64,000 bases of DNA from a virus. The notes under the pieces are model-generated. The model had not been told where the DNA came from and did no database searches. It saw only the letters and a program-made list of their open reading frames with translations. Of the stretch, positions 4,397 through 60,598 are shown in pieces. The position numbers and the translations under genes are program-made. Position 1 is the first letter of the stretch; every line of letters starts with the position of its first letter. The stretch is from the IMG/VR virus record IMGVR_UViG_3300029319_009305, positions 1 to 64,000 of that record; one strand, given 5' to 3'.

Positions 4397-5857
4397 ATGC
4401 ATGTTAATAAGAATTATAAAACAAATAAACTAACTGAAATATCTGTTAGAGAAGAAGGGAGCTTTGTTAATAATGCGGGAGCATTATGCACATACACGGG
4501 TGAACACACCGGCCGATCTCCAGGAGCAAAGTTCATAGTTTATGATAGTATAACAAGTGATACCGTTGATTGGACAAACAATAATAAAATTGGTGTTGAT
4601 GTCTTCGATGAGCACTATAGTAGATTTTTAGGATATAAAAATCAATTAGAAAAAGTGTATTTACAAGAAGTTAGTGCTGTCAAAGATAAAGAATACTCTT
4701 TGAATATCAATGTCTGGACACAATTTGCAAAGCATAGCATGTTTGCTAGAAACATGTTTACTCCTTGCGATAGCGATGAAAATTTTGAAGCTGATTACAA
4801 CATTTATCATTTTCCTTTATTAGACAACAATCCAACAGTTTTGATATCTTTAAAAGAGAAAGTCATCTTAATAACAGGAACTCTGTATTCTGGGGAAATT
4901 AAAAAGAGTATTTTTACTGTACTGAATTATTTGTTCCCTGAAGAACATGAATTTTTACCAATGCACTGTTCTGTTAACACAGATATGGCAGGAAATAATC
5001 CGGCAATATTTTTTGGGTTATCAGGCACCGGAAAGACAACATTAAGCTCAGATGTAAATAGAATTCTAATAGGAGATGATGAGCATGGATGGACTGATAA
5101 AGGGTTAGTTAATTTTGAGAATGGTTGCTATGCAAAGACAATCAACTTATCTAAAGAAGCAGAACCACAGATTTGGGAAGCATGTAATAGAAAGGGCGCA
5201 ATCTTAGAGAACGTTGTGATTAATGATGGAGAACCGGATTTTTGTGATAAAAAGCACACACAAAATGGCAGAGCATCTTATCCTTTTTCGTTTATTAAAA
5301 ATTCATCTGAGACTGGGCTGGTCAATCAACACCCTAAGAATATTGTTATGCTTACGTGCGATTCTTTCGGTGTTTTGCCACCGGTTGCAAAACTCACTGC
5401 TCGAGAAGCAGTTGAACAGTTTTTGCTTGGTTATACGTCAAAAGTTGCTGGGACTGAATCTGGGATCACAGAACCTGTCGCAACGTTTTCACCATGCTTT
5501 GGTTTGCCTTTTATGCCATTACCGCCAAAAAGATATGGTGAATTGCTCCAGAAGAAAATAAGCGATCACAATGTTAACTGCTGGTTGGTTAACACCGGGT
5601 GGTTGGGAGGAGGTTACGGCGTTGGAAATAGAATACCAATTGCTATAACTCGAAAGATTATAGATAAAATTTTAGATGGAACACTTTCAAGCTGTGAAAC
5701 AATAGTTCACCCTGCTACAAAGTTGCTAATACCAGTCACATCAGAAATACCTGTTGAAATATTATTGCCTGAAGTTGGTTGGTCTAATTTAGATGAATAC
5801 AAAAAAGCTGCTGCGCAGTTAAATAAAAAGTTTGATAATCAAAGAAATAATCAATGA
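4397..5857 (+). CDS. pckA: phosphoenolpyruvate carboxykinase (ATP)
   Basis: TGRSP, YSGEIKK, MHCS, FGLSGTGKTTLS, LIGDDEHGW, NFENGCYAK, FSPCFG, LVNTGW motifs. Confidence 0.95.
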   Translation: MHVNKNYKTNKLTEISVREEGSFVNNAGALCTYTGEHTGRSPGAKFIVYDSITSDTVDWTNNNKIGVDVFDEHYSRFLGYKNQLEKVYLQEVSAVKDKEYSLNINVWTQFAKHSMFARNMFTPCDSDENFEADYNIYHFPLLDNNPTVLISLKEKVILITGTLYSGEIKKSIFTVLNYLFPEEHEFLPMHCSVNTDMAGNNPAIFFGLSGTGKTTLSSDVNRILIGDDEHGWTDKGLVNFENGCYAKTINLSKEAEPQIWEACNRKGAILENVVINDGEPDFCDKKHTQNGRASYPFSFIKNSSETGLVNQHPKNIVMLTCDSFGVLPPVAKLTAREAVEQFLLGYTSKVAGTESGITEPVATFSPCFGLPFMPLPPKRYGELLQKKISDHNVNCWLVNTGWLGGGYGVGNRIPIAITRKIIDKILDGTLSSCETIVHPATKLLIPVTSEIPVEILLPEVGWSNLDEYKKAAAQLNKKFDNQRNNQ

Positions 5858-7275: not shown

Positions 7276-7881
7276 ATGAAACTAACAAGAAAAGAATTGC
7301 GAACTTTGGTTGAAAAAACATTAATTAAAGATCGAAAACAAAAAGTCATATCAGAAAGTTTAATGTACCACATCCAACATGGTGTTGGTGTTGATCAAAA
7401 TATTCATCGTCCTGGATCTGATGCTTTTTTTGCACTCTTTAAAGAAGTTCGCTTGTTAAGCAACGCAGGATTATATAGTTTAAATGAATCAGAATACAAT
7501 CTGTTAAACAATTCAGACTTAGGTGATTTTGGCTATTACGAAGGAAAACGTGTTCCTCTGGACTATCCCATGCTTTACGATGAAGAATTATCTGAAGCTA
7601 AGTACAAAGGTCGCAAAGTTAAACTTGGTAAAAAAGGAGCACAGCGAATTGGTGGTGGTAAGGCTAGAGTTTATGTAAGAAATGATAAAGGTAAGGTTGT
7701 AAAAGTAGAGTTTGGTTCATCGATGCCCGATGCAATGGGTGATTCAGAGGCACACAAAAAAAGAAGAAAAAGCTATGGTAATAGGCACCGGTGTTCGGAA
7801 AAGAAAGATAAGACTAAGCCAGGCTACTGGTCTTGTCGATTGACAAAGCTTTTTGGTAGAAATATTGCTGGGTGGTGGTAG
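7276..7881 (+). CDS. tagged phage protein with basic C-terminal domain (VKVEFG...RHRC...YWSC)
   Basis: MKLTRKEL tag; C-terminal motif pattern common in large myovirus-like genomes. Confidence 0.75.
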   Translation: MKLTRKELRTLVEKTLIKDRKQKVISESLMYHIQHGVGVDQNIHRPGSDAFFALFKEVRLLSNAGLYSLNESEYNLLNNSDLGDFGYYEGKRVPLDYPMLYDEELSEAKYKGRKVKLGKKGAQRIGGGKARVYVRNDKGKVVKVEFGSSMPDAMGDSEAHKKRRKSYGNRHRCSEKKDKTKPGYWSCRLTKLFGRNIAGWW

Positions 7882-7883
7882 TT

Positions 7884-8288
7884 ATGCTTTCTAAGTTAGA
7901 ATTACGTCTTTTGATTCTGGAAGAGACAATTTCAATTTTAGAAGGTAAAAAAAGGAAAAAGAAGCGAGATCCTAAAAAAGGGACAGGTAAAAAACCGAAA
8001 GGCAGTGGTCGAAGATTATATACTGATGAGGATCCAACAGATACTGTGAGGGTAAAATTTCGAACTGTTACCGACATCAAAGATACTTTACGTAAAAAAA
8101 GCTTCAAAAGTAAGAGTCATAAGCGTCAGTCACAGATAATTAATCTTATACACCAGAGAGTCCGAGCAGCATATAAAAACGCAAAAGATCCAAAGACTAA
8201 AGCTCGACTAAAACGAGCATACGACTACGCAAAAGAGAGAAAAGAAGCATCAAAGAGAAAAACCCAGAGGCTAAATAAGAAGAAATGA
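7884..8288 (+). CDS. basic hypothetical protein (GTGKKPKGSGRRLYTDE motif)
   Basis: Operon-coupled, Lys/Arg-rich, tag-like N-terminus. Confidence 0.7.
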   Translation: MLSKLELRLLILEETISILEGKKRKKKRDPKKGTGKKPKGSGRRLYTDEDPTDTVRVKFRTVTDIKDTLRKKSFKSKSHKRQSQIINLIHQRVRAAYKNAKDPKTKARLKRAYDYAKERKEASKRKTQRLNKKK

Positions 8289-9007
8289 AAATTACCCGTA
8301 GACAACTTAAAATGATTATTGAGTCTTTTCTTATAGAAAAGACAACAACTGCTAAAATGAAGTGTCCAAAGTGTGGAACAATCAACGAAGTAGGCGTCGA
8401 CAAGTGCACTAACTGCGGCCATGATTATGATGCAAAATTTCAAGGAAAGCCTTGGGAACCTGCAAAGAGTCTTCGAGAACGATTAATAAAGCGAGCTGAC
8501 AGGAATGAGTCGATTCAAGAAGAAAGAAAAAGAGGGCGATCAAAAGAAACACAGTGTCCAACTGCAACGCTGGACATAAGTGTTAACACAGCCAACCGCG
8601 ACCGAGCTCGAAAACTCGATTGGATTATGTACGGGCCACTTAATGTTGAATTTCCTGGTAAATACTGGAAAAAGATAGCAGCAAAATGGGGAACTTCATC
8701 TAAAGCTGCAAAGAAATCTAACTGCGGTAATTGTGTTGCTTTTGATCTATCACCTAAGATGGTTGATGAGTGCATACCCGCAATAACATCTGAACCTGTT
8801 GCTGATGAATTTGGTGTATTAGGATATTGCTGGATGCACCATTTCAAGTGTCATAGCGCTAGGACTTGCAACACTTGGGCATCTGGAGGTCCCATCAAGA
8901 CTGATGAAGTATCAGGTGAATGGTTTGATAGAAATAAAGAAGGTGCACTTAAGAAAGATCCAATTGATACAGATATTTATAAAGATGATACTGAAGGTGG
9001 AAAATGA
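8285..9007 (+). CDS. tagged Cys-rich protein (zinc ribbon plus CGNC...C..HHFKC...C domain)
   Basis: MKITRRQL tag; CPKC/CTNC ribbon. Confidence 0.75.
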   Translation: MKITRRQLKMIIESFLIEKTTTAKMKCPKCGTINEVGVDKCTNCGHDYDAKFQGKPWEPAKSLRERLIKRADRNESIQEERKRGRSKETQCPTATLDISVNTANRDRARKLDWIMYGPLNVEFPGKYWKKIAAKWGTSSKAAKKSNCGNCVAFDLSPKMVDECIPAITSEPVADEFGVLGYCWMHHFKCHSARTCNTWASGGPIKTDEVSGEWFDRNKEGALKKDPIDTDIYKDDTEGGK

Positions 9008-10047
9008 AAAAACCATATTATGAAAGTGTGTTATCAGAAAACACAGTAATCAGAGGCTTTTCGCAGACTGTACCCCAGTCTGATTTAGTTTGGCATCGTG
9101 ACGCTGAGTATAGAACGATTACAGTCGTAGAAGGTCGAGGTTGGAAATTTCAGCGTGATAACCAACTACCTCAAATTTTAAATGAGGGTGATACAGTTAC
9201 TGTTAAAGCAGGCGAGTATCACAGGCTCATAAAGGGTAATACAGACTTAGTTGTTACAATTGTCAAAGAAGGAAAAAAGAAAGACCAGAACAAAGATGGT
9301 AAGAATAACTTCGAGGATGTAAAAATTGCTAGGATGAAAGCTTCTGGCATGTCAGACAAAGAGATTAGAGAAAAGCATCCTGAGTTATTTGAAAAGTACA
9401 TCAATGAGAAAAAGAAGGGGCATCCTAGACAGTATGATGCACCTGAAGGTTCCCTTCGAGATAAAGCATTAGACGCAGTTCAAGCTATGCTTAAGCGAGC
9501 TAAGAAATTGCGTAAGGATGGTAAGGCAGGAGAAGCTAAAGACCTTGAGCAACGTGCCTATAAAAAAAGAGAGAGAATGGAGAAAAAGGAAAGAGACAAA
9601 AAGAAAAAGAATGAAGTGGTACAGGAAACAAGAATTAACGACCCTGATATCTTGAGTGAGTTAATTGAAGAGATTATTGAAGAAGAAAAATTGTATCTAG
9701 CACTCGAGGAAGTTTATGAGCGAGAAGAAGAGCGTTATGATACATTGAATGAAAAGAAGAAACGTAAAAAGAAGAAACGCAAAAAGAAAAAATCCGGTAG
9801 CCGAAAGCTTTCTAAGTCTATCAAGAAAGCTTTAGATAAAAAAGCTGATGCTCGCTGCTTGACTCGAGGTTCTGTGTACAGAGAATTTCGTGCAGGTTTA
9901 GGAGCATACTATTCTTCCGGATCGCGCAAGGGTATGACCCCTCACCAGTGGGCGTATGCGAGAGTTAACTCTGCGCAACCAAGTAAAGATTGGGCTAAAG
10001 TTAAAAAACGTAAGAAATGCCCAAAAAAGAAAAGAGGTAAAAAATGA
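9004..10047 (+). CDS. multidomain protein: cupin-like N-terminus, EF-hand-like DQNKDG, basic C-terminal QWAYARVN domain
   Basis: LVWHRD...YHRLIKG cupin pattern; operon-coupled. Confidence 0.7.
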   Translation: MKKPYYESVLSENTVIRGFSQTVPQSDLVWHRDAEYRTITVVEGRGWKFQRDNQLPQILNEGDTVTVKAGEYHRLIKGNTDLVVTIVKEGKKKDQNKDGKNNFEDVKIARMKASGMSDKEIREKHPELFEKYINEKKKGHPRQYDAPEGSLRDKALDAVQAMLKRAKKLRKDGKAGEAKDLEQRAYKKRERMEKKERDKKKKNEVVQETRINDPDILSELIEEIIEEEKLYLALEEVYEREEERYDTLNEKKKRKKKKRKKKKSGSRKLSKSIKKALDKKADARCLTRGSVYREFRAGLGAYYSSGSRKGMTPHQWAYARVNSAQPSKDWAKVKKRKKCPKKKRGKK

Positions 10048-10343
10048 GATCATTAAGTCAACTTGAACTGCGCAGCCTCATTCTCGAGGTCGCGAAAAGC
10101 AGTGAAGTCAAGGAATCAGAAATTAAAAAGGCTGTCATCAATTGCCTTAAAAAGGAAGGCGGAGCTGCCGGTATGAATGTCTGTATACAGACGGTCAAAA
10201 ATTTAGCAAAGGGTCGTAAAAAACTACCAAAAAATTTACGAACTAAAAAGCAGATTGGCAGATTTATATTAAGAATGGATAACGTCGTAAAACATCGCTA
10301 TGGCGATCTTATATTAACAACAGGTTTGCGTAGAAAAAAATGA
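10044..10343 (+). CDS. basic hypothetical protein with tag-like N-terminus
   Basis: ATGA overlaps on both sides. Confidence 0.65.
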   Translation: MRSLSQLELRSLILEVAKSSEVKESEIKKAVINCLKKEGGAAGMNVCIQTVKNLAKGRKKLPKNLRTKKQIGRFILRMDNVVKHRYGDLILTTGLRRKK

Positions 10344-10696
10344 AGATTAGTAGAAAACAGTTAAGGGCAATCATCTTAGAAGAGATATCTAAAGCTGCAC
10401 CTTTTGGTACAGGGATGAAGCAAGCAAAGCTTGATAAGGACAAAAAAGATATCATTGGTCATACGTGACTGACGCATGTTAAGCGGAAGGGTTCTGCTTT
10501 AAAAGAGGTCGGTGAGGTTATGTGGCACTCTCTTGATAAAAACGGCAACATCGAGGTTTACGATGTGCTATGGAGCAATGGTGTTGAAACTGATATTCCT
10601 GCTCACATGCTGGAAGGCGTCAAGCAGCAAGAACATCATCATAATGAACAGAGTGAGAAAACGCCCGCTGCAAAAAGAGTGTATAAGAAAAAGTAG
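10340..10696 (+). CDS. putative selenoprotein, 118 aa, in-frame TGA at 10466-10468 (residue 43)
   Basis: MKISRKQLRAIILEE tag; frame stays open 75 codons past the TGA (GHT*LTHV...WHSLDKNGNIEVYDVLWSNGVETDIP...EHHH); SECIS-like hairpin directly 3' of the TGA. Confidence 0.7.
10468..10513 (+). promoter_or_regulatory. candidate bacterial SECIS element
   Basis: Upper stem AAGCGGAA(10481-88)/TTCTGCTT(10492-99) with GGG loop 20 nt after UGA; lower stem ACTGAC(10468-73)/GTCGGT(10508-13). Confidence 0.6.
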
Positions 10697-10751
10697 TATA
10701 CACGTGCAAATCTTACTTTAATGTGGTATAATAAAAATAAAAGGAGTTTTT

Positions 10752-11684
10752 ATGTCCACAAGGCTTGGTTATGCATGTATCAATATGACACTTCAACAAC
10801 AAAAACCAAAAATTACTTGCAACAGGGGTATGATAAAGAGAACTTTCAAAACAAAAGGTTTGAACTACGCATCCGAATTATCCCTGTACAATACTAGCAA
10901 CATTCTACCAATACTTAAATGGAATGAAGCCAATGGCATAAAAGTTTTTAGAATCACCTCATGCCTCTTCCCATGGGGAAGCGAATATGAATTGGAGCAA
11001 CTTAAAGATTATGAAATCATTTGCAAGCACCTAGCAGCAGCAGGAAAGTATGCACTTGAAAACAATCACAGACTTTCATTCCATCCTGGACCCTTTAATA
11101 TTCTTTCTTCTCCGAAACCACATGTTGTTGAAAATTCTTTTAAAGATCTAGAAATGCATGGAAAGATATTTGATCTAATGGGAATGCCAAGAAGCCCACA
11201 ATCAAAAATTAACATCCATGTTGGCGCATCGTACAGTGAGCGCGAGACATCTCTTGCCCGATTTTGTAAAAACTTTGAAAGGCTAAGCGAATCAGTTCGA
11301 AGCCGTCTTACGGTAGAAAACGACGATAAAGGTAATCTTTACTCTACTAAGATGCTCTATCATGGTGTTTTCGAAGAAATTGGAATCCCTATTGTTTTTG
11401 ATTCACATCACTTTGAATGCGGCCCACAAGATACTGATTACGAAGAGGCATTCCTATTAGCTAATGATACATGGCCCGAAGGGATTCGACAACAGTGTCA
11501 TCATTCAAATTCAAAGGCTCTTTATGAAGACGAAAAAGTAATGATTAATGCGCATAGTGATTGGTACTATGAACCCTTTAATGATTGTGGTTTTGACGTT
11601 GATGTTGTTTTAGAATGTAAAAAGAAAGAACTGGCACTTTTAAAGTACAGAAAAGATTTTTTGGGTGAAGATGGAAGCAAATAA
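10752..11684 (+). CDS. uvsE: UV damage endonuclease
   Basis: RLGYACIN, RLSFHPG, INIHVG, RLTVENDD, FDSHH, HSD and LECK.KE motifs. Confidence 0.92.
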   Translation: MSTRLGYACINMTLQQQKPKITCNRGMIKRTFKTKGLNYASELSLYNTSNILPILKWNEANGIKVFRITSCLFPWGSEYELEQLKDYEIICKHLAAAGKYALENNHRLSFHPGPFNILSSPKPHVVENSFKDLEMHGKIFDLMGMPRSPQSKINIHVGASYSERETSLARFCKNFERLSESVRSRLTVENDDKGNLYSTKMLYHGVFEEIGIPIVFDSHHFECGPQDTDYEEAFLLANDTWPEGIRQQCHHSNSKALYEDEKVMINAHSDWYYEPFNDCGFDVDVVLECKKKELALLKYRKDFLGEDGSK

Positions 11685-11871
11685 TATTCGATATCCTGAT
11701 GCAGGTGACTTAATCCATTGTTCAAAAGGTGTTGGCTTGGTTATTAAGACAGCCGTTATAAAATACGCCGGGCTAGTGGGCACAGTTTATTTTGCAGACG
11801 GTTCCCTTCGGAAAGTTAATTTATCCTTTAAACCCATAACTATATTATCAAGTGTGAATGATGAAAATTAA
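11671..11871 (+). CDS. small 'GDL' family protein
   Basis: AGDLI motif, G.GLV strand. Confidence 0.55.
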   Translation: MEANNIRYPDAGDLIHCSKGVGLVIKTAVIKYAGLVGTVYFADGSLRKVNLSFKPITILSSVNDEN

Positions 11872-12076
11872 AAAAGGTAGTTTAGTTCGATTCAAAAGAG
11901 AAGTTTTAAATCTAGACTTAGACAACAATTCGCTTAGTGAAGCTGAATATTTGAATTGGATTGGACTAGTTCTTAGTATCGACAAGGAAGAACCAGGTGA
12001 ACAAATGTGTTTCGTTAAATGGTCTGATGGTTTAATCAGGCCAGAATTTTTAGAGTATTTGGAGATAATAAAGTGA
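11858..12076 (+). CDS. small 'GDLV'-like family protein
   Basis: KKGSLVR...GLV...VKWSDG...LEII. Confidence 0.65.
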   Translation: MMKIKKGSLVRFKREVLNLDLDNNSLSEAEYLNWIGLVLSIDKEEPGEQMCFVKWSDGLIRPEFLEYLEIIK

Positions 12077-17870: not shown

Positions 17871-17957
17871 GCCTTGGTGGTGGAATTGGTAGACACAGGA
17901 GACTTAAAATCTTCTGCCAGAATTGGCGTGCGGGTTCGAGTCCCGCCCGAGGCACCA
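17871..17957 (+). tRNA. tRNA-Leu(TAA)
   Basis: GCCTTGG/CCGAGGC acceptor stem, D-loop TGG, anticodon loop CTTAAAA, long variable arm, GGTTCGAGTCC, encoded CCA. Confidence 0.95.
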
Positions 17958-59284: not shown

Positions 59285-60598
59285 GTGAGAAAATTATTTA
59301 TTGTTGACACGTCTGTTCTTTTGTACGATAAGAGCTCAATACATTCATTCCCAGAAATTGATATTGTAGTGCCATTAGTTGCCTTAGATGAACTTGATAG
59401 GTTTAAAGAAAAAAAAGGTGTGACAGGAGAATCTGCACGATATGTCAATAGATTTTTAGATGAATTAAGAAAACTTGGTAGTTTACATGAAGGGGTAGAA
59501 TTAGAAAACGGTCAAACAATCAGAGTTGCTTTAGAAGGTTACAATAGTGTTCCTGAAGGCTTAAATGGTGATGATGCAGATAACAAAATGATATCGTTAG
59601 CTTTGGTGCTATCTAAAAGCCAAGAACAACCAATTACCTTGATCACAAAAGATATTAACTTCAGAGTTAAGTGTGATGCTTTAGGGATTAATTCTGAAGA
59701 CTACTACAAGGACAAAGTAATTGATTTTGAAGATGAATCGTACAAAGGCTTTGTTGAGTTAAAAATAGATCCTGAACATGATCACTTGATTGATTCTTTC
59801 TACGACGACGAGGATATTCTAGAAGATTTTGAAGATTTACTTGGGCGCAAACTTTTTCCTAATGAGTTCTTGACTGTAAAGTCTGGTAAAAGTAGATCTA
59901 TGATTGCTTGTAAGAGAAATAATAGATTAAGCAAGGTCAAAGAGACTGGTCAACTTGAAGATTTTATGGGCATTAAACCTAGAAATAGAGAGCAGCTATT
60001 TGCTTTAGACTTGCTTACAAATGATGATGTACCTTTAATATCATTGACAGGAATAGCAGGATCAGGAAAGACTTTTCTTACACTTATGGCAGGTTTAGAT
60101 GGTTTAAATAAGAAAAGGTATAAAAGAATTGTAATAACTAGAAATATTCAACCTGTTGGTAGAGATATTGGGTTTTTACCAGGAGATGCAAATGAAAAAA
60201 TGCTACCTTGGATTGCACCAATTATGGATAATTTCAGGCAAGGCACTAAAGACGAAGACATGTCTTATTTTGAAATTATGAGAAAAACAGGAAAGATCGA
60301 AATAGCACCGCTAGCTTTTATGCGAGGAAGAACATTCTCAGACACATTTCTAATAATTGATGAGTCACAGAATAGCACTATTCATGAGTTAAAGACAGTT
60401 ATAACAAGAATTGGTGAGAATTCAAAAATTGTTCTATTAGGAGATACAGATCAAATTGATACTCCCTATATAGACTCGCTGTCGAATGGTTTAACAATAG
60501 TAGGAGAGAAATTTAAAAATCAAGAAATGGCTGGGCACATACAGCTTCAAAAAGGTGAAAGATCACCTCTATCTTTTTTGGCTTCTAAAATTTTATAA
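59285..60598 (+). CDS. phoH: PIN-PhoH family protein
   Basis: VDTSVLL PIN domain; GIAGSGKT, GFLPGD, RGRTF, IDESQN, TRIGENSK, GDTDQID. Confidence 0.92.
   Translation: MRKLFIVDTSVLLYDKSSIHSFPEIDIVVPLVALDELDRFKEKKGVTGESARYVNRFLDELRKLGSLHEGVELENGQTIRVALEGYNSVPEGLNGDDADNKMISLALVLSKSQEQPITLITKDINFRVKCDALGINSEDYYKDKVIDFEDESYKGFVELKIDPEHDHLIDSFYDDEDILEDFEDLLGRKLFPNEFLTVKSGKSRSMIACKRNNRLSKVKETGQLEDFMGIKPRNREQLFALDLLTNDDVPLISLTGIAGSGKTFLTLMAGLDGLNKKRYKRIVITRNIQPVGRDIGFLPGDANEKMLPWIAPIMDNFRQGTKDEDMSYFEIMRKTGKIEIAPLAFMRGRTFSDTFLIIDESQNSTIHELKTVITRIGENSKIVLLGDTDQIDTPYIDSLSNGLTIVGEKFKNQEMAGHIQLQKGERSPLSFLASKIL

What the first reader, a model, noticed from the sequence alone, without database searches (positions are those of the whole stretch)
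10340..10696. Putative phage-encoded selenoprotein: single in-frame UGA plus SECIS-like hairpin
Seen: ATG 10340 overlaps the upstream stop (ATGA) and begins the same MKISRKQLRAIILEE tag as its neighbours. A TGA occurs at codon 43 (10466-68), and the frame then stays open for 75 codons, ending just before the next promoter (10704). Read through, it gives ...IIGHT-U-LTHVKRKGSALKEVGEVMWHSLDKNGNIEVYDVLWSNGVETDIPAHMLEGVKQQEHHH.... Directly 3' of the UGA is a hairpin: 8-bp upper stem, GGG apical loop 20 nt from the UGA, and a lower stem reaching into the UGA. Established: bacterial SECIS elements lie immediately downstream of the Sec UGA with a G early in a small apical loop, and many deltaproteobacteria use Sec. 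Inference: I recall large-phage proteins with H-x-C-A-x-H-V...YDV-x-F-x-x-G-x-E-x-x-V-P...H-x-H, which would place Cys exactly at this UGA; this is from memory and needs checking. The phage would borrow host SelA/SelB/tRNA-Sec to build a His/Sec metal or redox site, possibly in a virion-packaged protein. The ORF track missed it because both halves are under 60 aa.
Basis: partly seen in the sequence, partly recalled or inferred. Interest (0 to 1): 0.92.

Follow-up and report, generated by a model that had tools for sequence, protein, structure and literature searches.

The report
Phage gene encoding a selenocysteine protein
A small gene of this uncultured marine T4-like phage has an internal UGA "stop" that every one of about 130 related phage sequences keeps, at a position where cyanophage relatives have cysteine and just ahead of a co-varying RNA hairpin; this is the standard signature of selenocysteine, which I found reported for no virus of bacteria.

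Summary
ORF 10340-10696 (+) has one in-frame TGA (10466-68) and an 8-bp hairpin with a GGG loop starting 12 nt after it.

The comparative evidence supports selenocysteine (Sec):
- All 135 related loci examined, from viral and marine metagenome contigs, keep TGA at this codon. None has TAA, TAG or a sense codon, although synonymous sites are saturated.
- T4-like cyanophage homologues (P-SSM7, P-HM1, MED4-213 and 46 distinct metagenomic forms) have an invariant Cys there, in an H-x-C motif.
- Two Sec subfamilies carry different hairpins at the same offset (11-12 nt). Both show compensatory changes. 86 of 90 distinct sequences meet the published bacterial SECIS criteria, and the Cys forms lack the hairpin.
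- Codons just after the UGA vary almost only at third positions, with dN/dS near 0.
- TGA is an ordinary stop elsewhere in the window.

The phages carry no tRNA-Sec, selB or selD. They would depend on an unidentified host, which is the main gap.

The protein has a T4-type capsid-targeting-like leader and an SH3-like barrel with invariant H41, U43, H63, H99 and H101. Its function is inferred, not shown.

This scan reported the same family before on other DNA (e1-5319761). I found no paper describing it.

The parts
10340..10696 (+). Complete selenoprotein-candidate gene: 118 codons including UGA-43, with TAG stop at 10694-10696. Its start overlaps the stop of gene 10044-10343 (ATGA), so the two are translationally coupled.
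   Evidence: Both halves are under purifying selection against relatives, dN/dS 0.03-0.26.
10340..10384 (+). N-terminal leader MKISRKQLRAIILEE, with an (I/L)-x-E motif before E15. It is a candidate capsid-targeting and prohead-protease cleavage signal.
   Evidence: 47 distinct variants of the leader head the Sec-form proteins, 37-56 residues upstream of the UGA. It is predicted to be a helix. A gp21-type protease is present in 4 of 4 larger related phage records. Its function is inferred.
10466..10468 (+). In-frame UGA, the proposed Sec codon (residue 43).
   Evidence: The codon is TGA in 55 of 55 viral loci and 77 of 77 metagenome loci, plus 3 more read by eye. It aligns to an invariant Cys in 21 Cys-form sequences.
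10481..10499 (+). SECIS-like apical hairpin: arms 10481-10488 and 10492-10499, loop GGG 10489-10491. It starts 12 nt after the UGA.
   Evidence: loop GGG, spacing 20 nt, 8 bp, MFE -16.0 for UGA+54 nt. 94-96% of cells are paired, against 38-59% when the partner columns are slid. Three pairs show changes on both sides.
10468..10513 (+). Possible lower stem (10468-10473 with 10508-10513) that encloses the hairpin and includes the A of the UGA.
   Evidence: It is present in the MFE fold. It is 86% paired across 15 relatives but shows no compensatory change, so it is unproven.
10460..10642 (+). Conserved domain, residues 41-101: a small SH3/Tudor/KOW-like beta barrel. Invariant residues are H41, U/C43, H63, L65, Y74, D75, H99 and H101.
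   Evidence: Alignment A7 of 31 sequences. AlphaFold2 pLDDT is 83-93 over residues 41-90. Only generic small-barrel matches were found, Z <= 5.2.
10705..10733 (+). Promoter-like GTGCAA-17 nt-TATAAT (with TG before the -10) for the next gene, uvdE 10752-11684. It marks the 3' limit of the operon that holds the Sec gene.
   Evidence: Read. UvdE was identified. The promoter reading is an inference from consensus.

Best explanation
The gene 10340-10696 encodes one 118-residue protein in which UGA-43 is decoded as selenocysteine.

Proposed mechanism:
- The mRNA hairpin 12 nt downstream of the UGA acts as a bacterial-type SECIS.
- The host's SelB, carrying Sec-tRNA(Sec), binds the hairpin and delivers Sec to the ribosome at the UGA.
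- The phage supplies only the mRNA signal. It borrows selA, selB, selC and selD from the host.

The product has two parts. The N-terminal leader resembles a T4 capsid-targeting sequence with an (I/L)-x-E protease site. The rest is a small SH3-like beta barrel with five invariant residues (His41, Sec43, His63, His99, His101) that most likely form a metal-binding or redox centre.

What is shown: conservation of the UGA, Cys in homologues, a co-varying hairpin found only in the UGA forms, coding constraint across the UGA, and the standard genetic code elsewhere.

What is inferred: actual Sec insertion, a host that can decode Sec, packaging into the capsid with cleavage, and the chemistry of the His/Sec site.
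For: 1. The UGA is kept. 55 of 55 viral loci and 80 of 80 metagenome loci have TGA at H-x-*. This holds down to 26-30% protein identity. None has TAA or TAG, which would serve equally well as a stop. Synonymous sites are saturated in the N-terminal half.
2. There is a Sec/Cys pair. Cys is invariant at this column in cyanophage homologues. On the tree a single branch separates the Sec forms from the Cys forms, with support 92/84.
3. The hairpin behaves as a SECIS.
   - Subfamily 1 has AAGCGGAA-GGR-TTCYGCTT starting 12 nt after the UGA. Subfamily 2 has AAAGCTG-AGTT-CAGCTTT starting 11 nt after it.
   - Three pairs in subfamily 1 and two in subfamily 2 change on both sides. 94-96% of cells are paired.
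   - 86 of 90 distinct sequences meet all four bSECIS criteria quoted in PMC13188914.
   - Cys forms lack the hairpin: mean MFE -2.8 against -8.6 kcal/mol.
4. The two halves are one coding unit.
   - Codons 44-47 vary only at third positions.
   - In the 17 codons after the UGA, comparisons with the four closest relatives show 0 nonsynonymous against 3-6 synonymous differences, and the two more distant ones show 1-4 nonsynonymous against 4-6 synonymous. dS is lower there than in the flanks.
   - Invariant H41 lies upstream of the UGA.
   - Subfamily 1 has no conserved start codon downstream.
5. The code is standard. TGA ends 27 of 94 + strand ORFs, and code 11 gives 84% coverage.
6. No UCA-anticodon tRNA was found: ARAGORN ran over the whole of the own record, and in five larger related records only over the stretches that matched the tRNA-Sec model.
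Against: - No Sec machinery was found in the own 108-kb record or in five larger related phage records, two of them rated 100% complete. Everything therefore depends on an unidentified host.
- The host hints are weak and do not agree.
   - The nearest cultured capsid relatives infect Flavobacterium, at 46% identity. In a 2006 survey Bacteroidetes lacked the Sec trait (PMC1794560).
   - The closest named PEPCK relative is labelled Pelagibacteraceae. A preprint reports that Pelagibacter lacks selC.
- In subfamily 2 an ATG usually follows the TGA directly, which would also allow termination followed by reinitiation.
- The hairpin in this window alone is not exceptional.
- There is no protein-level or selenium evidence.
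Confidence: 0.8

Rival explanations
1. Readthrough that depends on the hairpin but inserts no selenium. The conserved UGA plus hairpin promotes decoding by a near-cognate tRNA (Trp, Cys or Arg), or by a tRNA-Sec-like tRNA-Cys(UCA) delivered by SelB. The full-length protein would then carry an ordinary residue at position 43.
For: The conserved UGA, the hairpin and the coding constraint show that the codon is read through. They do not show which residue is inserted. Mukai et al. describe tRNA-Cys species in deltaproteobacteria that mimic tRNA-Sec and may act as opal suppressors (PMC5389517). No Sec machinery was found in the phage records.
Against: - The position aligns to an invariant Cys, which is the hallmark used to define selenoproteins.
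- The hairpin geometry matches the SelB-type model: 11-12 nt spacer, small loop beginning with G or with G at its second position.
- If plain Cys were wanted, a single base change (TGA to TGY) would give it efficiently. None of about 135 loci has made that change.
Confidence: 0.12
2. Two separate genes, or termination followed by reinitiation. The UGA is a real stop. A leader peptide of about 42 residues and a separate C-terminal domain are both made, and the hairpin serves coupling or mRNA stability.
For: In the window GGTGAGGTT precedes ATG 10520. In subfamily 2, 20 of 23 distinct sequences have ATG directly after the TGA, and one has GTG.
Against: - M61 is not conserved: most subfamily 1 members have Leu and L006 has Lys. 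No in-frame start is conserved between the UGA and the domain.
- The subfamily 2 codon after the UGA is ATA in L122 and CTG in L123. That fits a hydrophobic sense position, which is Ala in Cys forms and Leu in subfamily 1.
- The codons right after the UGA evolve as coding sequence.
- Invariant H41 sits upstream of the UGA, and in Cys forms it is part of the same domain.
- A mere stop would drift to TAA or TAG. None has.
- The leader would be separated from the domain it should target.
Confidence: 0.05
3. A pseudogene, a sequencing error, or genome-wide reassignment of TGA, as in phages with recoded stop codons or hosts using code 4 or 25.
For: A single TGC/TGT to TGA change would create this codon. 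The ORF callers split the gene.
Against: - The same codon occurs in about 135 independent contigs, with dN/dS 0.03-0.26 on both sides.
- TGA terminates 27 of 94 + strand ORFs, including the gene immediately upstream.
- A crude scan found no other credible in-frame TGA gene in the own 108-kb record or in a related 284-kb genome.
Confidence: 0.02

Closest known systems
Bacterial selenoprotein genes with an in-ORF SECIS read by SelB (prototype E. coli fdhF; bSECIS consensus as summarised in PMC13188914)
   Same: An in-frame UGA at a position where homologues have Cys. A hairpin lies immediately 3' inside the ORF, with an 11-12 nt spacer, a 7-8 bp upper stem, a 3-4 nt loop with G in its first two positions, and the loop 18-20 nt from the UGA.
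   Different: The gene lies in phage genomes that carry none of selA, selB, selC or selD. The protein family is found only in phages: there was no homologue in 185,579 species-representative genomes. Its loops (GGR, AGUU) and stems are its own, and nothing matched in Rfam.
Poxvirus selenoproteins (molluscum contagiosum GPx1-like and fowlpox GPx4-like; the only viral cases named in the review PMC8310308)
   Same: A virus encodes a Sec-UGA gene and relies on the host's Sec machinery. In fowlpox the SECIS also lies within the coding region.
   Different: Those are eukaryotic viruses with eukaryotic SECIS elements and captured cellular GPx genes. Here the virus infects bacteria, the SECIS is of the bacterial type, and the protein family has no cellular counterpart.
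Cys-containing homologues in T4-like cyanophages (P-SSM7 PSSM7_192, P-HM1 PHM1_163, MED4-213 CPMG_00178; PHROG 22379 and 11470, function unknown, some annotated 'possible cytitidyltransferase')
   Same: The same domain, H-x-C/U ... H-x-L-D-x-x-G ... Y-D ... H-x-H, at 24-35% identity, with H41, C/U43, H63, Y74, D75, H99 and H101 invariant.
   Different: - They have Cys (TGT or TGC) in place of UGA and no hairpin.
- They usually have a second Cys 14 residues later, which the Sec forms lack.
- The domain is often embedded in proteins of about 435 residues with no MK(I/L)T leader.
- Their hosts are cyanobacteria, in which the Sec trait was not detected (PMC1794560).
T4 internal proteins and Alt, which carry an N-terminal capsid-targeting sequence removed by the prohead protease gp21
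   Same: A short N-terminal leader is shared by otherwise unrelated small proteins. An (I/L)-x-E motif sits where gp21-type proteases cut, after Glu (PMC9026906). gp21 and gp23 homologues are present in related phages.
   Different: The leader sequence, MK(I/L)T(K/R)xQL(K/R)x(I/L)IxEE, is unlike T4's. Neither packaging nor cleavage has been shown. The own record is a fragment without a head module.
Phages with reassigned stop codons (for example Lak and crAss-like phages)
   Same: An in-frame stop codon is read as sense in a phage gene.
   Different: Those phages recode one stop codon throughout many late genes, often with a suppressor tRNA. Here it is a single codon in a single gene, TGA is otherwise a normal stop, and no suppressor tRNA was found.

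Membership tests
Bacterial-type selenoprotein gene (Sec-UGA plus bSECIS) | An in-frame UGA inside one continuous, conserved ORF | tested here: met
   TGA at the same codon in 55 of 55 viral and 80 of 80 metagenome loci. Purifying selection on both sides, and third-position variation right after the UGA.
Bacterial-type selenoprotein gene (Sec-UGA plus bSECIS) | Homologues with Cys aligned to the UGA (a Sec/Cys pair) | tested here: met
   Cys is invariant in 21 non-redundant Cys forms and in three isolated cyanophages.
Bacterial-type selenoprotein gene (Sec-UGA plus bSECIS) | A hairpin meeting the bSECIS model: 3-9 nt loop, 4-16 bp stem, G in the first two loop positions, 16-37 nt from the UGA, MFE <= -7.5 kcal/mol | tested here: met
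   Window: loop GGG, 8 bp, 20 nt, -16.0 kcal/mol. 86 of 90 distinct family members pass all four criteria. The criteria are quoted from PMC13188914.
Bacterial-type selenoprotein gene (Sec-UGA plus bSECIS) | The hairpin is under selection as a structure and is tied to the UGA forms | tested here: met
   Compensatory changes in 3 pairs (subfamily 1) and 2 pairs (subfamily 2). 94-96% paired, against 16-59% when slid. The two subfamilies have different stems at the same offset. Cys forms lack the hairpin. The number of independent events is small, because the changes are shared within clades.
Bacterial-type selenoprotein gene (Sec-UGA plus bSECIS) | selA, selB, selC (tRNA-Sec) and selD available in the cell that translates the mRNA | not testable with these tools
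   The host is unknown. tRNA-Sec, selB and selD were not found in the phage records searched; selD was not searched in the own record and selA was not searched at all. Virus records have no relatives to draw on.
Bacterial-type selenoprotein gene (Sec-UGA plus bSECIS) | Selenium actually incorporated at the UGA position | not testable with these tools
   This needs 75Se labelling or mass spectrometry.
T4-type capsid-targeted (CTS) internal head proteins | A short N-terminal leader shared by unrelated proteins, ending in a protease motif before Glu | tested here: met
   47 leader variants of the form MK(I/L)T(K/R)xQL..(I/L)IxEE head the Sec forms. Neighbouring genes 7872, 8285 and 10044 carry similar leaders.
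T4-type capsid-targeted (CTS) internal head proteins | A gp21-type prohead protease and a gp23 capsid protein in the same phage | tested here: inconclusive
   Present in 4 of 4 larger related records. Not found in the own 108-kb fragment, which CheckV rates 15% complete.
T4-type capsid-targeted (CTS) internal head proteins | The protein is found, processed, inside virions | not testable with these tools
   This needs virion proteomics.
Phage with a reassigned TGA codon (codes 4 or 25, or late-gene recoding) | Many in-frame TGA codons across genes, and TGA not used as a stop | tested here: not met
   TGA ends 27 of 94 + strand ORFs, and code 11 gives 84% coverage. No other credible in-frame TGA gene in G000 or G001.
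SH3/Tudor/KOW-like small beta barrels | A five-stranded small barrel fold | tested here: inconclusive
   The AlphaFold2 core has pLDDT 83-93. The best matches are generic: YorP 2heq at E 0.07, PHF19 Tudor at Z 5.2, NusG KOW at Z 4.7. There was no sequence match to PDB or Pfam.

The most novel reading that the evidence does not exclude
A whole family of marine T4-like and jumbo phages encodes a genuine selenoprotein. It would be the first for a virus of bacteria, and a selenoprotein family with no cellular member. The phage writes a SECIS matched to its host's SelB into a capsid-cargo gene. Virions would then carry a His/Sec centre into the next cell, and phage fitness and host range would be tied to the host's Sec machinery and to selenium supply in the ocean.
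Probability: 0.7. Interest if true: 0.88.

Novelty: new variant of a known kind. Interest (0 to 1): 0.85.

Why it matters
Selenocysteine decoding is known in cells and in two poxviruses that captured host GPx genes. I found no report of it in bacteriophages. Searches combining selenoprotein or selenocysteine with phage or viral terms turned up none. A 2026 review of the prokaryotic selenoproteome does not mention phages or viruses, and a 2021 review of viral recoding names only the two poxviruses.

If the reading holds, four things follow.
- The map of where the 21st amino acid is used would extend to phages.
- It would add a selenoprotein family that is specific to phages, abundant in ocean metagenomes, and always split in two by gene callers.
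- The SECIS must fit the host's SelB, so it would serve as a host-range marker.
- It would offer a short, natural SECIS-and-protein pair for testing how strictly SelB recognises foreign mRNAs.

It also raises a question about chemistry. An SH3-like protein of about 100 residues has kept Sec across very deep divergence, while its cyanophage cousins manage with Cys, and the reason is open.

Tried and rejected
- **Nucleotide search.** blastn of 9000-12000 against 50,697 phage records gave no match.
- **Known protein and RNA families.**
  - Pfam gave no family for the protein, and PHROGs gave only families of unknown function.
  - Rfam at E <= 10 gave nothing on 10400-10600.
  - A profile of A7 matched no PDB sequence.
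- **Structure search.** Foldseek and VIA-align gave only generic small-barrel matches, with no functional lead.
- **Bacterial genomes.** The scan of species-representative genomes found no homologue, only a 20-residue chance match. No prophage or host link came from it.
- **Host inference.**
  - PIN-PhoH hits are scattered across unrelated phages.
  - The capsid protein of related G001 is at most 46-48% identical to Flavobacterium phage and huge-phage records.
  - PEPCK relatives are almost all unnamed. One at 63% is labelled Pelagibacteraceae.
  - None of this settles the host. Relatives cannot be drawn for a virus record.
- **Sec machinery and suppressor tRNAs in phage records.** None found. 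The sub-threshold tRNA-Sec hits are tRNA-Leu(UAA), tRNA-Ser(UGA) and others.
- **psbA.** Absent from 5 related records.
- **More UGA-plus-hairpin genes.** Scans of G000 and G001 found only off-frame noise.
- **Lower stem.** No covariation.
- **GOS 2008 selenoprotein families.** GOS_A and GOS_B are different proteins, and none of my motifs occurs in that paper's supplementary sequences.
- **Terminator reading of the hairpin.** It is not followed by a T run.
Full report
**What is in the window**

The window is the first 64 kb of a 107,885-bp IMG/VR virus record that CheckV rates 15% complete. Gene 10340-10696 (+) starts at an ATG that overlaps the TGA stop of the upstream gene (ATGA). It encodes MKISRKQLRAIILEE..., has TGA as codon 43 (10466-68), and stays open for 75 more codons to TAG 10694-96.

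Twelve nt after the TGA an 8-bp stem (10481-88 with 10492-99) closes a GGG loop. A lower stem (10468-73 with 10508-13) encloses it. The MFE is -20.6 kcal/mol for 66 nt, z = -3.1.

Taken alone this is suggestive, not compelling. 6% of all TGA triplets on the + strand are followed by an equally stable fold at that offset.

**Cys homologues**

tblastn of the read-through protein hit T4-like cyanophages across the UGA position. P-SSM7 PSSM7_192, P-HM1 PHM1_163 and MED4-213 CPMG_00178 read ...H-(D/S)-C-A-(S/T)-K-V-...-H-x-L-D-E-x-G-N-...-H-Y-D-V-...-H-E-H. Their Cys aligns exactly to the UGA.

Scans of IMG/VR gave 46 distinct Cys-form sequences of this kind.

**The UGA is conserved**

Viral and metagenome scans recovered 55 and 80 loci of the WHSL-type domain. 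Every one has TGA at H-x-*: 55 of 55, and 77 of 77 plus three read by eye. None has TAA, TAG or a sense codon.

There are two Sec subfamilies:
- Subfamily 1, to which the window belongs: ..IIGHT-U-LTHVKRK(D/G)SAL..
- Subfamily 2: ..(L/I)(E/Q)H(Q/K)-U-MKEG(K/R)LSSAL..

They share only 26-33% identity with each other and with the Cys forms.

In a maximum-likelihood tree one branch separates all Sec forms from all Cys forms (support 92/84). One Sec/Cys switch therefore suffices, and Sec has been held across very long branches.

A plain stop codon could change to TAA by a single transition. That this never happened, while synonymous sites are saturated, means the identity of the codon is under selection, not merely its ability to stop translation.

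**The hairpin**

Subfamily 1 has AAGCGGAA-GGR-TTCYGCTT starting 12 nt after the UGA. Subfamily 2 has a different hairpin, AAAGCTG-AGTT-CAGCTTT, starting 11 nt after it.

| Alignment | Distinct sequences | Cells paired | Paired when partners are slid | Pairs changed on both sides |
|---|---|---|---|---|
| Subfamily 1 (A6) | 58 | 94% | 38-59% | 3 (A-U to G-C, C-G to A-U, A-U to C-G) |
| Subfamily 2 (A5) | 22 | 95.5% | 16-55% | 2 (A-U to G-C, G-C to U-A) |

Some of these changes also alter the protein (K/A to R/D), so the structure was kept at the expense of the peptide.

The changes are shared within clades, so the number of independent events is small. I treat the covariation as solid but not overwhelming.

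Using the bSECIS criteria as quoted in a 2026 review (PMC13188914), 86 of 90 distinct sequences pass all four. The Cys forms have no such hairpin: mean MFE -2.8 against -8.6 kcal/mol over the same 33 nt. The lower stem has no covariation. The hairpin is not followed by a T run, so it does not look like a terminator.

**One protein, not two**

- Directly after the UGA, codons CTN-ACN-CAY-GTN vary only at third positions.
- Against the four closest relatives (88-63% identical), the 17 codons between the UGA and M61 show 0 nonsynonymous and 3-6 synonymous differences. The two more distant relatives compared show 1-4 nonsynonymous against 4-6 synonymous. dS there is 0.27-0.70, lower than in the flanks, as expected for an overlapping RNA structure.
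- Both halves have dN/dS of 0.03-0.26.
- M61 and its GTGAGGT are not conserved. Most relatives have Leu and one has Lys.
- In subfamily 2 an ATG usually follows the TGA, but ATA and CTG also occur. That fits a hydrophobic sense position, which is Ala in Cys forms and Leu in subfamily 1.
- Invariant H41 lies upstream of the UGA, and in Cys forms it belongs to the same domain.

**Genetic code and machinery**

Under code 11, + strand ORFs cover 84% of the window, and TGA ends 27 of 94 of them.

The whole record has one tRNA, Leu(UAA). No tRNA-Sec above threshold, no UCA anticodon (in the relatives, only the stretches that matched the tRNA-Sec model were checked for anticodons), and no selB or selD were found in the records searched: the own record (not searched for selD) and five larger relatives, two rated 100% complete. 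selA was not searched.

Those relatives are T4-like, with gp23 and gp21 homologues. They lack psbA.

Crude scans found no second UGA-plus-hairpin gene in G000 or in the 284-kb G001.

**Host**

The host is unresolved.
- The capsid protein of G001 is closest (46-48%) to a huge uncultured phage and to Flavobacterium phages.
- The closest named PEPCK relative (63%) is labelled Pelagibacteraceae.
- A 2006 survey found no Sec trait in Bacteroidetes or Cyanobacteria (PMC1794560).
- A 2026 preprint reports that 135 Pelagibacter genomes lack selC, whereas Actinomarina has the full machinery.

The Cys forms in cyanophages fit hosts that cannot decode Sec. For the Sec forms, the host's capacity is the key untested requirement.

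**The protein**

It has no Pfam family and falls in PHROGs 22379 and 11470, both of unknown function.

AlphaFold2 run on a 31-sequence alignment gives a leader helix, a disordered linker, and a confident small beta barrel (pLDDT 83-93). Its only structural matches are generic SH3/Tudor/KOW folds.

H41, U/C43, H63, L65, Y74, D75, H99 and H101 are invariant. The window's protein contains no Cys at all, and it lacks the second Cys that most Cys forms carry. I infer a His/Sec metal-binding or redox centre. Whether these residues cluster in space could not be checked here.

The leader MK(I/L)T(K/R)xQL..(I/L)IxEE heads nearly all Sec forms and several neighbouring genes. Its (I/L)-x-E fits cleavage after Glu by gp21-type proteases, and it resembles the T4 capsid-targeting principle (PMC9026906). 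In some relatives several leader-tagged modules are fused into one ORF. Packaging into the capsid is an inference.

**Novelty**

Literature searches found no phage-encoded selenoprotein.
- The GOS selenoproteome paper's new families differ from this one, and my motifs are absent from its supplementary sequences.
- The 2026 review of the prokaryotic selenoproteome mentions no phage or virus.
- A 2021 review of viral recoding names only two poxvirus GPx genes.

Earlier agents of this scan reported the same H-x-U family on other DNA (e1-5319761) and similar cases elsewhere. I used these as leads only and repeated the tests here.

**Verdict**

The most likely explanation, at about 0.8, is Sec decoding that depends on a SECIS and on the host's SelB. 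The main alternative is hairpin-dependent readthrough that inserts an ordinary residue.

Noticed in passing
L006:2413-3321; L005:3001-3733; L159 (295-aa ORF); L008:1195-1833: In relatives, several leader-tagged modules (each starting MKI(S/T)xxxL..IxEE) are fused head to tail in one ORF, with the Sec domain as one module. This looks like a polyprotein that a prohead protease would cut at each internal leader.
   Followed up: partly
window 7872-10696: Five translationally coupled genes with overlapping ATGA or GTGA junctions. At least four of them carry the L..(I/L)(I/L)xE leader (7872, 8285, 10044, 10340). The 9004-10047 product has a cupin and a DUF5824 domain and a very Lys-rich tail.
   Followed up: partly
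window 4397-5857, 1287-2816, 10752-11684, 59285-60598: Phage-encoded ATP-dependent PEP carboxykinase (Pfam E 2e-168), a YceI-like protein, the UV endonuclease UvdE, and a PIN-PhoH fusion. The closest named PEPCK relative (63%) is labelled Pelagibacteraceae TMED247.
   Followed up: partly
L143:630-993 (G001, 284-kb related phage): A phage-encoded tmRNA with tag ANDNVEYDYALAA, next to a tRNA cluster. tRNA-Leu(UAA) is shared by the window (17871-17957) and four related phages.
   Followed up: no
window 10469-10519: Synonymous divergence in the 17 codons after the UGA (dS 0.27-0.70) is well below that of the flanks, where it is saturated. This is a footprint of the RNA structure overlapping the coding sequence.
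   Followed up: yes
window 10705-10733: GTGCAA-17 nt-TATAAT, with TG before the -10, upstream of uvdE. This is the same unusual -35 that another note of this scan lists as a repeated promoter cassette at 32-43 kb.
   Followed up: no
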